From Lama guanicoe (lineage: Eukaryota): 64,000 nucleotides of DNA. Shown here in pieces: positions 33,401 through 62,244 of this stretch; position 1 is the first letter of the stretch; each line of letters begins with the position of its first letter. Both the position numbers and the translations under genes were made by a program. The stretch spans positions 3,240,283 through 3,304,282 of the forward strand of contig MU053561.1 of assembly GCA_013239625.1 (NCBI GenBank). The letters are read 5' to 3'. The notes under the pieces are model-generated. The model made no database searches and was not told where the DNA came from. It saw only the letters and a list, made by a program, of their open reading frames with translations.

Positions 33401-34769
33401 AGCAAGACCCATCACTGAGAATTCATCATTCCCAGGCTGGTTCAATGGGATGGAGTTGGGTCTCTTTCTTACTTCTAGTGGCTTCCTCCATCTTGTTAAT
33501 GGAAGTGCACTGAAACGCCCAAATCTCCCTAGACACGCTTTTTGCTGCATGGACAGTGGTTCCCGAGAGTGCCCAGCAGCCCTGGGAGTTCTGTGGGCAG
33601 CAGCTGACACCAGGGATGGAGGCGATGGGAAGGAGGCTGAGGCAGGGGTGCGGAGTAAGAACAACCACTTCACTGCAGGATTAGCTTTGGAAAAGGGAAG
33701 CCAGATGGATCAAAGGAAGAAAGAAAAGGGCACCTACATCCAGCTCTCAGGACAACCTCAACAGGCTCAGGTGTCTTCACTTTCAGCTCCTGTTTAGACC
33801 TAGTGACGCAACAGGACCTTAGTCCTATTGACGTAGGGGCCCCTGGTCCAGACACACTCAGGAAAGGCAGGTAATGTGCCCGGAGTGACACAGCTAGCTG
33901 CTGACAAAGTCCAGACTACAACCTTGGTTCCCCCATTCCTAGTGCAAGTGTTGTTTCCATCTCCTCATATGGCTTCCAGATTGCTCATTTTCCAGACCCC
34001 TCCTGGAAGACTCTGTCCCTGGCCCCAGAGCAGCAGGCCATTTGGACGCCAGGCAGCCGGCACTTCAGGGAGCAGCAGGAGAGGGTGCCTCACCTAGGGG
34101 GGCTGGGGAATGGGCCCACCCTGCAGGCTCATTTCCCTCAGTGCAATGGGACCACCGGAATCAGGACATTAACATGTGGAGTGTGCCTCAGTGCTGTCCA
34201 AACCAGCCCTGAATACTAACCAGGGCGCTTAGATGGAGCTAAAAATAACTGGCTAATCACCACCAGGAAGAATTAACAAGGACTCAGAAGAAAGGAAAAT
34301 GTCTTAATATTCCATCTCTCTACAGCTGGGCTCCAGCTGGGGCCAGCCTCCTCCTGGCTGCCACCGGGCAGGTAATTAGGCAGCTCGGAAGCTCCGACAC
34401 TTAGGGGCTCTGGGAGGGGGCCTGCCTCAGACCACAGGAGGGTAAACGGAGCAGGGTTATTCAGGGTGGGCTGAGTCTGACAACAGTGAACACAGAAAAA
34501 ATGCGATGCGACAGGAAGCAGGTTTTGAAGAACAAAACAGTTGATGCATTTTACACCCCTTCTCCTTTGAGAAAGTAAAATCCTTCATAAAAGGAAACAG
34601 CATTTTCTTCTGCTCAGCAAATCCTCTGACAGCCTTCCTTTTCCTAACGCGCAGGTGCCTAGTTCTGAAAGCATCATTGGAGTCCATGCCCTGGGGACCA
34701 TACTGAAATGAGATCTCCCTGGCAATTACCCTCTCTGAATGAGGACCAAAGTGGACCCACGACAAAATG

Positions 34770-42394: not shown

Positions 42395-43669
42395 TATACA
42401 AAAATAAACTCAAAAAGGCTTAAAGACTTAAATAAAAGACAAGGCACGATAAATCTCCTAGAAGAAAACATAGGCAAAACATCCTGACATAAATCTTAGC
42501 AATGTTCTCCTAGGGCAGTCTACCCAGGCAACAGAAATAAGAGCAAAAATTAACAAATGGGACCTAATTAAACTCATAAGCTTCTGCACAGCAAAAGAAA
42601 CCATAAGCAAAACAAAACGACAACCATGGAATGGGAGAAAACATTTGCAAATGATGCGACTGGCAAAGGCTTAATTTCCAGAATATATAAACAGCTCATA
42701 CAACTTAATAACAACAAAAAAGCCAACCCAATCCAAAAATAGGCAGAAGATCTAAACAAGCAATTTTCCAAGGAAGACATACAAATGGCCAATAGGCATG
42801 TGAAAAAATGCTCAATATCACTAATTATCAGAGAAATGCAAATCAAAACTACATTGAAGTATCACCTCACACCAGTCAGAATGGCCATCATTCAAAAGTC
42901 CATGAACGATAAATGCGGGAGAGGGTGTGGAGACAAGGGAACCCTCTTACGCTGTTGGTGGGAATGTACTTTGGTGCAATCATTATGGAAAACAGTATGG
43001 AGATTCCTCAAAAAACTAAAAATAGACTTATCCTATGATCCAGCAATTCCAGAGGGAACTCTAATTGGAAAAGATACATGCACCCCAATGTTGACAGCAG
43101 CACTATATACAATAGTCAAGACATGGAAGCAACCTAAATGTACATCAACAGATGACTGGATAAAGAAGTGGTGGTATATTTATACAATGGAATACTACCC
43201 AGCCATTAAAAATAATGAAATAATGCCATTTGCAGCAACATGGATGGACCTGGAAACTGTCATTCTAAGTGAAGTAAGCCAGAAAGAAAAAGAAAAATAC
43301 CATACGATATCACTTATATGTGGTATCTTAAAAAAAAAAGGAAAAAAAGGACACTATAAACTCATCTACAAAACAGAAACAGACTCGCAGACATAGTAAA
43401 TGATCTTATGATTACCAGGGAAAGGAGGGGGGATAAATTTGGGAGACTGAGATTTATAAATGTTAGCCTCTGTATATAAAAATAGATTTTAAAAAAGTTT
43501 CTGCTGTATAGCACAGGGAACTATGTTCAATATCATGTAATAACCTTTAATTAAAAAAATATGAAAATTAATATATGTATGTACATGCATGACTGGGACA
43601 TTGTGCTGCACACCAGAAATTGACACATTGTAACAGATAGTACTTCAATTTAAAAAAATAAATAACTTT
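42395..43669 (+). mobile_element. Young 5'-truncated L1 (~1.27 kb)
   Basis: Contains the ORF2 C-terminus and a complete 3' UTR with A tail; approximate TSD aaaaaaag(ca)ttctgca at ~42378-42394 and ~43671-43685. Confidence 0.95.
42785..43396 (+). pseudogene. L1 ORF2p C-terminal remnant (203-aa ORF), not a host gene
   Basis: [71 protein letters not shown] are hallmark L1 ORF2 motifs. Confidence 0.93.
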
Positions 43670-46592: not shown

Positions 46593-46849
46593 CTCAGCAG
46601 AGACTTGACACTGACCGCTGCGGGTCTGAACATTAAAAGGTGTGCATCCCACTCTTGACAAGTGTGAAAGTAGAGAAATGAACTTACAGAGAACAATTAA
46701 TTACATCCAAGTGAAATCATTGCTGGGACTGGGACTGGGTGTATTTAGTAAGGAGAGAGATAGCAAAAGCCTGACCAAAAGAAGCGTTCTGTTTTTTTCT
46801 CACTTCTCACCTGTCTTTTGGCGGTTTCTTTTGGTTTCTTTTCCATTGT

Positions 46850-47640
46850 TCACTATCTCAGTTAACAGCATCACTACGCAAATAGCACAAGCCAAGAATC
46901 TACGAGTCATTCTTACATCTCACTCTCCTATAACGAATCTGTCACCAAAACCTGATTAGCACTATTTATTTTACTTTATGTATATGTCTAAAAATCTCCA
47001 CTTACCTCCACCTTCACAGCCATCACCATAGTCCAAGGTCCCATCGTCTCTGGCCCGAGCCCGGACTCATGGGTCTACCGGCATCCCTCTGCTTCCCTCC
47101 CAGTTGGTCCTCCCCTCCCCGCGGTGGGAGTAGCCTATCACAGTGAAATCTGGTGGCACCGCCCTGCCGATGAAACCCTCGCGTGGATTTGTGTGGCGCT
47201 GGGGATGAAGGGTAAACTCCTCCACCTGGTCTAGAAGGCCCTGCCGGCAGCCCTGCACTTGGCCTCTCTTAGCTCCGCCCACCGGTCTACCATCAGTCCT
47301 TTGACCGCGAGGCTTTTGGGAGCCGTTCTCTTGCACAGAACTGCAACTCTCCTTCGACAGGCTGACTGCTGCTGCTCCAGCATCATCTCCTGTGGAAGCC
47401 CTGCTTTGTCTCCAGAGGAGGTCACCCTCCTGTTCCATCTCTGAGAGTGTTAGGTGCCTCCCAGTGATGGTTACAGTTTTACGCTTACTTGTGTCACTAC
47501 TGCACTGGCGTCTGCTTCCCAACTACCTGCAAGCTCCTTGGTCACTGGGATTGTGAGCTTTTTCACCCATTTTTGTGTCTTTGAAGCACAGCCTGGCACC
47601 TGGTGCCCAGTAATTGCTCAGCCCACATTTATTGAATTAA
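46850..47640 (+). mobile_element. L2 LINE 3' part
   Basis: 'caagccaagaatctacgagtcattctt', 'cagccatcaccatagtccaagg', tail 'gcacagcctggcacctggtgcccagtaattgctcag...tttattgaattaa'. Confidence 0.8.
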
Positions 47641-52859: not shown

Positions 52860-53105
52860 GTAACCCGAGAGAACAAAGCCATATACGTTCTTCCTAGGGA
52901 AGAACTCTGATTGGCTCAGCCTGGGTCATGTGTTCGCCTCTCAGATGAATCACTGTGCCAGATAATTGGGGACTGTGATTGGCCAGACCTGGGTCACTTT
53001 CTCACTATCCTGGCCCAGGAGAGGGGACAGCAATTAGCAGCCAAACCAGAATCACATGGATAGGTAATGGAAGGAAGTTTCCTGGCAGAGAAAACAACAT
53101 TCATA
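52860..53105 (-). mobile_element. MaLR LTR relic (MLT1K-like)
   Basis: 'tctgattggctcagcctgggtcatgtg...aatcactgtgccag...gattggccagacctgggtcac'. Confidence 0.65.
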
Positions 53106-53679
53106 AAACACTACTGTGCTTAATAGTTTAAGAGCACTTTCGCACACACGTCATCTGATCTGCAGTCTAACCCCGCGAGGAGCATGGAGCACACAAGATT
53201 TTTCTCCACCACATGATGCCGCTTCCCCTTAGAGATGCAACTGGTCACACAGGCAAAATACTTTGAATTTCTTCAAGAACACTGTCACAGGAGGATCGAT
53301 TCATTGAGTGCCTTTTATTGTCATCTGACACAATCCTTGCACACTGCCAGCTCAAGAGTTTTCAACTGAACTCCTGAGTTTTCAGAGAGCAGGTCCCTGG
53401 GGAGTAGAGCCTCACATCACAGTGAATCAGCAGCAAAGCCATCACTTCACTCCCTGGGGACCCACTTCTGAAGCACAGATCCTCCCTCTTTTCCCTCAGA
53501 CTCTTCCCTGGCTCCTTCTCTGCCAGGAAAATCAGAGATGCCATTAGGAGATGTCATTTCAAGCAGAACTGCAATTGGCAACAGGTCATTTACTAATATG
53601 TGCATTCATTTTCTTTATTCTTTTGTTAATCTACGCATCTGTTCTTTGACACACTGAAACTGCATTGAGAACGTGTACA

Positions 53680-54100: not shown

Positions 54101-54960
54101 ATCTGCTCGACATAAAACAGGGTGAGAGGTAAGATGAAAATTGCACAGGGCTGGTCTCAGATTGCTTATAAACTCGTGGGAAGCAAGGCAATGCAGAAGG
54201 AGGAGCAATACAGAGGCAATACAAATTGCTTTAAAAGCTCAGAGGAGAAGGAGGGATGACTTGAACTTGAGATAATTAGACTGACTCCTGAAGGAGGTGG
54301 CATTTGAGCTAGTTAGTGTGGGCTTGAAAGATGGATATAAACCTGAAAATGGAAATGGGGTGAGGCCAGCAAGCAGGGCAAAGAGCAGTGACAACTGCAA
54401 AGCCAAGGGCAGGTTTTCATGCAAATGAGGACCCTTCAGTGGCACCTTCCTGACAGCACTACACACCTGCTCCCCCGTTCACCATTTCTGTACCCCTCTG
54501 TGTTATCGCCTGCCAGCTGCCAGCATCCTCCTGGTCTTGGAAGAGACAGAGGCATGCAGATGTGCGGGATATTTTTCTCACTGTGGCTAGGCAGCTTTCC
54601 CTTGAGTCATCTTCCATCCTATTGGAGCAAGAGAGGCCTCGAGGCCTAAGGAGGTAGGCCAGGCAGTGAGTTAGAGGGAAGAGACCTGGAGTCTAATAAC
54701 TTATTCATGACAAACCTTTTCAGAGCTTCGCAGTTTACAGAGCATGCTGACCTGTAGAATTTCATTTGCTTCTTACCTCAACTCAGACCGGCTGAAGCCA
54801 TACATCATATAAGAAATGCTTTGTCCAATCAGCAGTGCTGCAGAAGGGAATTCATTGTTCTAGCAACACCAAAATCTTATTTCAGATTCCATTGATTCTG
54901 AATGTGCGGTCATTTGCACAAGGCTTTGGGCTGACTGTGATCTTTCCACTTGCGATAACT

Positions 54961-55420
54961 GAAAAGATTTGCTAGGCAAATTAACACTGTGGCCAAGATT
55001 GTAGCCAGACACTCATCGCCGACAGAGAACAACCGTTTTCGGTGAGAACTGTGGCACGACTGTAAGCGTATGGGATTTCGATTAATTTTGAACAATGCTC
55101 TTTTCATTTAAGTAGGTCTGGCGGGACTTCTACAAGGCAATAAAACTTGGTTAATCATTTGTTTGAGCTCCTGAAAATTCGAAAGAGTAAGAGAAATTGC
55201 TAAGCAAATTAGTTTGGGGCCTCATAGAGAGCATGTAAGTGTTTGAGAAAAGACTGGACAACCGTTTGGCCAGGACGTTGAAGAGGAGATCCTGGCACCC
55301 GATGGCAGTTTGGATTAATTTTGGCAGGGAACATACTTCCTTTTCCTTTTCCCCTAAAATCTCCATAAAAGCTCCATCAAACTGACACATACACAGAGCA
55401 ATTCTGGTTAAAGTGAGGAG
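54961..55420. repeat. Highly diverged ~230-bp tandem duplication with conserved motif islands
   Basis: ttgcta(g/a)gcaaatta 54969/55197, acaaccgttt 55029/55258, gattaattttg 55080/55313 (offsets 228, 229, 233). Confidence 0.7.
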
Positions 55421-55549
55421 TGTGTCCCCCTGAGTTCTCACCCCTCCCCCTCACTCCTCTCCAGGCGCCTTCGTCCAGGTGGATGAAGAACTCCAAGCTC
55501 TAGTGATGTTTAAGATGTCTTTGAATCCTGTGTCTATAAGCTTGAGACC

Positions 55550-55735
55550 CGCAATAAATAGCAGCCGACACATATTCGGAGCCTGTTCTGTGGCAAGTCT
55601 AGGCTAAGTGCTTGCTTTTACAGAGGAGGAAAGAGAGGCTTTGAGAATTTAAGAAACTGGTCCGCGACCACACTAACGGGGCATGGTGGAGCTGGGTTTG
55701 GGCCCGGTCTCACAGATACAAAGAACATGCTTTTA
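55550..55735 (-). mobile_element. MIR SINE relic
   Basis: 'ttttacagaggaggaaagagaggctttgagaatttaagaaactggtccgcgaccacac'. Confidence 0.75.
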
Positions 55736-56640: not shown

Positions 56641-57669
56641 GATACCCTCTCACTTCACAGAAGGGAGGCTGCACTCCCTTTGTGGACAAACTCCTTCTGG
56701 CTGAAACACTTAGGACTCTGTCCACCTGGTGGGTCCCTGCCCACCGGGGGCACTGCGTTCTCATTCCAGGGTTCTCTGTTATCTTGACAGGAGAGAAGCT
56801 GCAGGAGACACAGGAGCTGCTGGCTTCTGGGGGGTTAAGGATGAAGGAATGGAAGATCAGGCTGAGGGGAGATGAGTCCCTGACGAAAGGATTTGTACTC
56901 CCTTGGTTTTGATGCTGATTTCCAGTCTGCACCACTGCACAAGCTCTCTCCAACACTGACAGGTGACAGACTTGCCTTCTCAGGCCTTCTCTTAAACGCT
57001 TTGAGTTTCAAGAAACAGGATCTCACTCAGATTGCTTCAAGTAGGGGCCTTATTTGCATGCCTGTGCTTGGCTGCAAAGACTACTGGACGCTCATCGGAA
57101 CCCAGGGACTGCAGCAGACTTGGCTCCACCATGGCCAGAAGAGGGACCAGAGCCAGAACCACAGGACCCCAGGATAGCAATAATCTCCTCCCTCTCTCTC
57201 TCTCTCCTCATCTTGGCCCCATGGGCTCTTCAATTCCACGTCACTATGGAAACCACCCTCCCCTCCTCCTGGTGTTGCTGCTGGAAATTCTGTAACCTCA
57301 TCCTGCCCCACAACTTCCACTGCATCAGGAGCCCTGCTGCCTCCACAGCCCGCTTGACAGCCTACTCTCTGTGGAGTTTTCGCAGTTTCTCTTTCTGCCC
57401 CCAAGCCCACCAGCCCTCTCTCCACAACCTATAGCTCACATTCCTGCTTGGCTAGAAACTTCTTGCAAAATTGCTTGCCCGCTGCTGGTTCAGGCAGCCA
57501 CAGCCAGACGGCCAGTCACGTGGGATCGCAATGGTTTCTGAGGAAGGAATGTCCCTTAATAGAGGGCTTTGGGCTGATTCCATAACCCCACCTCCCCCGT
57601 TGCCCCTCACCTCCCTGAAAAGGGAGATCTAGGCATTGATGTCTCAGGGCCCCTGCTTTCAGACACAGG

Positions 57670-62207: not shown

Positions 62208-62244
62208 NNNNNNNNNNNNNNNNNNNNNNNNNNNNNNNNNNNNN
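62208..62244. other. Assembly gap (37 N)
   Basis: Run of n flanked by C-rich tracts. Confidence 1.

What the first reader, a model, noticed from the sequence alone, without database searches (positions are those of the whole stretch)
54961..55420. Cryptic ~230-bp tandem duplication in which only motif-sized islands survive: a candidate duplicated enhancer module
Seen: in sequence I cannot assign to any repeat, three words recur in the same order at near-constant offset. They are TTGCTA(G/A)GCAAATTA (54969 and 55197, 14/15 identical, offset 228, near-palindromic), ACAACCGTTT (55029 and 55258, offset 229) and GATTAATTTTG (55080 and 55313, offset 233, extendable upstream as ATGG..TTT.). The sequence between them is essentially unalignable. 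Established: YAACNG is the MYB core, TTAATC(C) is the K50 homeodomain (OTX/CRX/PITX) core, and AT-flanked TGCTnA resembles a MAF/NRL half-site. An HNF1-like GGTTAATCATTTG also lies at 55149-55161. Inference: an old duplication whose spacers drifted while binding sites (or RNA boxes) were retained, so the motif grammar and spacing would be under selection.
Basis: partly seen in the sequence, partly recalled or inferred. Interest (0 to 1): 0.7.

Follow-up and report, generated by a model that had tools for sequence, protein, structure and literature searches.

The report
Faded tandem duplicate in camelid DNA
Three short DNA words recur in the same order about 230 bases apart in a gene-free stretch of a mammalian genome; this is probably an old doubled gene-control element whose protein-binding sites outlasted the DNA between them, but a decayed repeat or a coincidence is not excluded.

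Summary
The three words are at the stated places. As a three-island chain the pair scores 32. Shuffled windows reach that in 0 of 452 runs (offsets 100-500) and 2 of 682 (offsets 30-2000), so p is about 0.003 per window. A gapped-alignment score is only borderline after the same correction (5 of 93). The spacers are indeed unalignable (983 of 5000 shuffles do as well), so the islands are the whole signal; simulated neutral duplicates give such islands in 87 of 2900 cases. Largely independent support: the locus has the highest CpG observed/expected ratio of 139 tiles, confined to copy 1. No Rfam family, RNA fold, Pfam exon, third copy or transposon ends were found. Conservation in other mammals and a Dfam match were not tested, and they decide the case. 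Best reading (about 0.5): a degenerate duplicated cis-regulatory module. Rivals: internal repeat of a transposable element (0.28), coincidence (0.2). Known kind, modest interest.

The parts
54930..55157 (.). Copy 1 of the putative ~228-233 bp unit (ends approximate); CpG-retaining
   Evidence: CpG o/e 0.88 with 9 CpG
55158..55390 (.). Copy 2 of the putative unit (ends approximate); CpG closer to background
   Evidence: CpG o/e 0.39 with 4 CpG
54969..54983 (+). Island 1, copy 1: near-palindrome with AT-flanked TGCT (MAF-half-site-like, recalled) overlapping a TAAT core on the minus strand
55197..55211 (+). Island 1, copy 2 (14/15 identical, offset 228)
55029..55038 (+). Island 2, copy 1: MYB-type AACCGTT core (motif label recalled), CpG kept
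   Evidence: 2 of the window's 4 AACCGTT words lie in this element
55258..55267 (+). Island 2, copy 2 (10/10, offset 229), CpG kept
55080..55090 (+). Island 3, copy 1: AT-rich word with homeodomain TAAT cores on both strands; no exact K50 hexamer
55313..55323 (+). Island 3, copy 2 (11/11, offset 233); exact K50 hexamer on the minus strand from 55312
55140..55145 (+). Possible fourth island ATAAAA (CDX/posterior-HOX-like, recalled; also part of an AATAAA at 55139-55144); weak on its own
   Evidence: partner at offset 225; not tested against a null
55365..55370 (+). Partner of the possible fourth island
55149..55161 (+). HNF1-like word at the junction of the copies, single copy
   Evidence: Only GTTAATNATT match in the window; label recalled
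54825..54918 (+). Unduplicated upstream motif cluster: CCAAT box (54825), RFX-half-site-like CTAGCAAC (54860, only one in the window), octamer-like ATTTGCA (54912)
   Evidence: labels recalled, patterns chosen after reading the sequence
55552..55730 (.). MIR-like fragment bounding the element downstream
   Evidence: Family label recalled; weak matches to 2 other window positions, E 7e-4 and 0.013

Best explanation
An old head-to-tail duplication of a ~230 bp cis-regulatory unit (enhancer or weak non-island promoter) in gene-free DNA of a camelid-type mammalian genome. After duplication the spacers mutated to background while three 10-15 bp sites stayed because proteins bind them: a MYB-type site, a TAAT-core homeodomain site, and a MAF-like/TAAT near-palindrome. 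Doubling would raise occupancy and output of one cell type's enhancer. My preferred input, weakly held, is a MYB-family factor working with RFX and a CCAAT factor (germ-cell or ciliated-cell type), because CpG retention in copy 1 fits low germline methylation. Shown: the words, order, offsets, excess over shuffles, CpG retention. Inferred: common descent, selection, factor identity, tissue, target gene.
For: Chain score 32 reached by 2 of 682 and 0 of 452 shuffled windows. Neutral duplicates decayed to the same identity give such islands in 87 of 2900 simulations. CpG o/e ranks first of 139 non-overlapping tiles and first of 101 loci; it is 0.55 after discounting 3 island-linked CpGs against 0.25 for the window. 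The CpG in island 2 is kept in both copies. No coding, RNA-family or fold signal competes. Local duplication leaving only sites as the trace is described for fly modules (PMC3188502, passages).
Against: Spacers give no independent sign of common descent. The gapped score is borderline after correction (5 of 93). The K50 hexamer is in one copy only. CpG excess is confined to copy 1, and by raw CpG count 127 of 1268 tiles equal or exceed the element. Motif patterns were recalled and chosen after seeing the sequence. No ortholog, chromatin or expression evidence was obtained. Retinal enhancer codes show little conserved motif spacing (10.1101/2024.11.13.623372, passages), so near-constant spacing over saturated spacers is not the expected enhancer behaviour.
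Confidence: 0.5

Rival explanations
1. The two units are an internal repeat of one transposable element (LTR enhancer repeat or DNA-transposon subterminal repeat), or two adjacent copies of an ancient repeat. Islands were kept during the element's own fast evolution or survived by luck; the host may or may not use them.
For: The top real chain in the window (score 37, offset about 1300) is a pair of interspersed-repeat copies: its left member has 8 relatives in the window. Repeats are thus a common source of such chains. CpG retention also fits a young insertion. Many ancient mammalian repeats are unclassified (PMC5753468, passages). Neutral decay gives such islands about 3% of the time.
Against: No third copy or relative in the window and no look-alike among earlier notes (weak, those cover 102 windows of this genome). 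No TG...CA/target-site duplication above background: 2 candidates against a background mean of 2.8. No inverted termini above 11/14. That repeat-derived chain sits in sequence that aligns to other window copies at 66-75% identity over 88-263 columns, unlike this pair.
Confidence: 0.28
2. Coincidence, possibly helped by independent gain of repeated sites in an ordinary AT-rich regulatory stretch. There was no duplication and the spacing means nothing.
For: p of about 0.003 per window gives roughly 0.3 expected cases among the 102 windows noted for this genome. Unalignable spacers are what a scan-selected coincidence shows. The gapped score is borderline. The chain parameters (3 HSPs, band 6, span 250) were set after seeing the pattern.
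Against: The locus is also first in CpG o/e among 139 tiles, which the block shuffles do not link to the repeat. All three words carry recognisable cores. A possible fourth pair lies in register.
Confidence: 0.2
3. The units are transcribed RNA modules (tandem small RNAs or 3' end signals) and the islands are RNA boxes.
For: AATAAA at 55139-55144 with a related hexamer in register; a splice-acceptor-like site at 55465 and a further AATAAA at 55553.
Against: No Rfam match at gathering score over the whole window at this place. At E up to 1: none in 55123-55700 and two weak upstream matches far below cut-off. Fold z-scores -0.33 and -0.21. Offsets 228/229/233 break frame, so a coding repeat is excluded.
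Confidence: 0.02

Closest known systems
Regulatory modules formed by local sequence duplication (PMC3188502; passages read)
   Same: Neighbouring binding sites arise by duplication; the repeat decays and the conserved sites remain as the main trace.
   Different: That work concerns single site pairs up to about 50 bp apart in Drosophila, with distances free to drift. Here a three-site, ~120 bp array recurs at ~230 bp with offsets within 5 bp in a mammal, and function is untested.
[quoted passage not shown]
   Same: Head-to-tail doubling of an enhancer that raises output by dosage is the proposed mechanism.
   Different: Those duplications are recent breed variants shown by reporter assays; this pair has diverged to background between sites and has no functional data.
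K50/MAF photoreceptor enhancer code (PMC6802965 and 10.1101/2024.11.13.623372; passages)
   Same: One TAATCC and AT-flanked TGCT words are present.
   Different: TAATCC is in one copy only, and 289 of 1268 window tiles have at least as many; MYB does not occur in the preprint's text.
Ancient mammalian repeats with possible internal repeats (MER, UCON, Eulor, MamRep; PMC5753468 passages) and LTR enhancer repeats (recalled)
   Same: Old non-coding elements that can keep motif-sized remnants.
   Different: No termini, target-site duplication or second locus found here; no repeat library could be searched.

Membership tests
Duplicated cis-regulatory module | Collinear self-similarity beyond chance | tested here: met
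   2 of 682 and 0 of 452 shuffled windows; borderline by gapped score, 5 of 93
Duplicated cis-regulatory module | Residual homology outside the sites (common descent) | tested here: not met
   Spacers matched by 983 of 5000 shuffles; flanks by 698 of 1500 and 97 of 1500
Duplicated cis-regulatory module | Similarity concentrated in sites more than neutral decay gives | tested here: inconclusive
   87 of 2900 neutral simulations, 896 of 20000 column permutations; the locus was selected for this pattern
Duplicated cis-regulatory module | Sites conserved across species more than spacers | not tested
   No ortholog or read alignment was obtained; no genome held; searches returned no relatives
Duplicated cis-regulatory module | Open chromatin, factor binding, reporter activity | not testable with these tools
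   No chromatin tracks or assays; CpG retention is indirect
K50/MAF photoreceptor enhancer | K50 TAATCC sites retained in both copies or enriched | tested here: not met
   One site, copy 2 only; 289 of 1268 tiles have at least as many
LTR or DNA transposon with internal repeat | Terminal TG...CA or inverted repeats with target-site duplication | tested here: not met
   2 candidates versus background mean 2.8 in 122 placements; best inverted 14-mers 11/14, 7 found, none with a target-site duplication. Old elements lose these marks.
LTR or DNA transposon with internal repeat | Match to a library consensus and many genomic copies | not testable with these tools
   No repeat library and no genome; no second copy in 64 kb
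Structured non-coding RNA | Rfam match or unusual folding | tested here: not met
   z -0.33 and -0.21
CpG island | G+C at least 50% with o/e at least 0.6 over 200 bp or more (definition recalled) | tested here: not met
   Copy 1 has o/e 0.88 but G+C 0.43

The most novel reading that the evidence does not exclude
A mammalian enhancer whose whole three- or four-site module was duplicated in place so long ago that the spacers have turned over completely, while site order, orientation and spacing (60/61 and 51/55 bp between island starts) are held in both copies by selection. It would be a natural footprinting experiment that reads enhancer grammar from one genome, and a pattern that repeat finders miss and that could be mined genome-wide.
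Probability: 0.25. Interest if true: 0.6.

Novelty: new member of a known kind. Interest (0 to 1): 0.3.

Why it matters
If cross-species data confirm it, the pair shows which bases of an enhancer matter without any assay, and it tests whether spacing of 50-60 bp between sites is constrained, where cross-species studies of retinal enhancers saw little spacing conservation. The three-island chain score used here could be run genome-wide to find such faded duplicates, which Tandem Repeats Finder did not report. If it is a repeat remnant or a coincidence it matters little.

Tried and rejected
Whole-genome copy search: no genome held. Viral contigs: 0 matches. Protein search with the 99-aa minus-strand frame over copy 2: 2 candidates, none at E up to 0.01. 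Pfam on 600 stop-to-stop frames (150 of 175 near the element; 450 of 470 elsewhere): five weak hits, all under cut-off, so no gene was identified. A rough splice-site scan listed 17 candidate exon frames, none recognisable. Six RNA or RNA-like runs hold 0.04-0.16 of the words; no reads were laid on the stretch, so they are not evidence. The Markov null and the all-block banded null were judged inflated by low-complexity or biased blocks; both are reported above as results against. My first impression that the spacers align at about 60% was rejected. A full RFX X-box was not found. Literature: the two island-1 words occur in no paper of the library; searches on duplicated or degenerate enhancer modules, motif combinations, MER121 and CpG listed nothing that I could tie to this locus. 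Earlier notes near this place or on look-alike sequence: none.

Full report
Setting. The window is mammalian non-coding DNA. Rfam finds only four tRNA-like matches, none at the element; I read them as tRNA-derived SINE heads (inference). Earlier notes call this genome camelid and put an ADAM30 finding 2,819,318 bases before the window (AI notes, not checked by me). Pfam found no hit above cut-off in 600 stop-to-stop frames (150 of 175; 450 of 470), and a rough splice scan gave nothing recognisable. The window is therefore intergenic or deep intronic, and the target gene is unknown. No genome is held. The stretch 54700-55600 is held almost whole by 14 of 24 listed runs, 11 from 6 studies once 3 possible sources are removed, so it is not an assembly artefact.

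The observation. Tandem Repeats Finder reports only two microrepeats in the finding's span (55337-55352, 55355-55381) and no ~230 bp period. A gapped alignment gives 82 identities in 134 columns, which first suggested alignable spacers. Anchored tests show otherwise: 2791, 683 and 983 of 5000 shuffles match spacer 1, spacer 2 and both; 698 and 97 of 1500 match the flanks. The islands are the whole signal. A profile search found no third copy: the next best scores were shifted versions of the same two copies.

Chance. For the hand-picked pair, 0 of 5000 shuffles reach the score under either of two schemes. Corrected for searching a whole window, the answer depends on the statistic. A gap-permissive banded score of 52 ranks fourth in the real window and is reached by 5 of 93 shuffles of balanced blocks (111 of 128 blocks), 67 of 74 with all blocks and 25 of 280 Markov simulations. 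A chain of three ungapped matches scores 32, best in the window at offsets 100-500, with 0 of 135 and 0 of 317 shuffles reaching it. At offsets 30-2000 it is second, and 2 of 682 shuffles reach it. I take p of about 0.003 per window, noting that the chain parameters were chosen after seeing the pattern. That is real but not overwhelming in a scan of many windows.

Selection. If the pair is a duplicate, its pattern is unusual for neutral decay: of 12000 simulated pairs, 2900 fell at matching identity and 87 of these had runs as long; 896 of 20000 column permutations did. CpG observed/expected is 0.75 over the element against 0.25 for the window, first of 139 non-overlapping tiles, and 0.55 after removing three island-linked CpGs. 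It is confined to copy 1 (0.88 versus 0.39), G+C is 0.43, so this is not a CpG island, and the raw count is not extreme (127 of 1268 tiles as high). CpG loss follows germline methylation (PMC12582260, abstract and opening text), so retention points to low germline methylation, purifying selection, or a young insertion.

Motifs (labels recalled unless cited). Island 2 holds a MYB-type AACCGTT; 2 of the window's 4 such words are here. Island 3 has TAAT cores on both strands, but the K50 hexamer TAATCC (definition in PMC6802965, passages) occurs only in copy 2. Island 1 has AT-flanked TGCT and a TAAT core; its palindrome is one of 196 of that size in the window; no full RFX X-box is present. Single-copy extras are an HNF1-like word (55150), an RFX-half-site-like word (54860), a CCAAT box (54825) and an octamer-like word (54912). 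ATAAAA recurs at offset 225 (55140, 55365), a weak fourth pair. These fit several cell-type codes: germ cell or ciliated cell (MYB with RFX; PMC2797782 seen only as a search listing), gut or kidney (HNF1, CDX, MYB), retina (K50, MAF). The sequence alone cannot choose; I lean to the first because of the CpG pattern.

Rivals. A transposon-internal repeat is the main one, since the best real chain in the window (37) comes from interspersed repeat copies. Against it, no termini or target-site duplications stand above background and there is no other copy in the window; no repeat library was available. Coincidence predicts exactly such unalignable spacers but does not explain the CpG rank. RNA modules have no support, and the offsets exclude a coding repeat.

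Comparison and novelty. Site formation by local duplication with later decay of the repeat is described for flies at distances up to about 50 bp (PMC3188502, passages), and dosage gain by tandem enhancer duplication for chickens (PMC13696352, abstract). This case would be a larger, older, multi-site example. Cross-species retinal work found little conserved motif spacing (10.1101/2024.11.13.623372, passages), which is why held spacing would be of interest and also a reason for caution. My ten searches listed nothing I could tie to this locus; the library lacks most subscription papers, the locus is unnamed, and I read no supplements, where enhancer or conserved-element tables could list its ortholog.

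Verdict. Observation confirmed; interpretation partly supported. Duplicated regulatory module 0.5, transposon-derived repeat 0.28, coincidence 0.2, RNA module 0.02; these odds rest on judged priors, not on a computation. Cross-species conservation was not obtained and is decisive. Interest 0.3.

Noticed in passing
window 55465-55558: A splice-acceptor-like site at 55465 (best of three near the element) followed by AATAAA at 55553; could be a short terminal exon of a non-coding transcript, or chance at the edge of a MIR-like fragment.
   Followed up: no
window 54418-54435 and 57043-57060: An 18-nt inverted pair (89% complementary) carrying an octamer word in each arm, 2.6 kb apart and bracketing the element.
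   Followed up: no
window 53078-53092 and 53516-53530: A perfect 15-nt inverted repeat 423 nt apart.
   Followed up: no
window 46741-47380: Second-highest CpG o/e locus in the window (0.66; 0.56 tile), G+C-rich; not identified.
   Followed up: no
window 33700-34450: A banded self-alignment at offset about 340 ending near 34102 scores 55, above this element's 52, but forms no three-island chain; may be compositional.
   Followed up: no
window 57241-57254: An RFX X-box-like near-palindrome (label recalled) about 2 kb downstream of the element, seen.
   Followed up: no
window 42743-43396: A 217-codon open frame resembling the 3' end of a LINE-1 (recalled; no Pfam hit), with related fragments elsewhere in the window.
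   Followed up: partly
window 62208-62244: A 37-base run of N.
   Followed up: no
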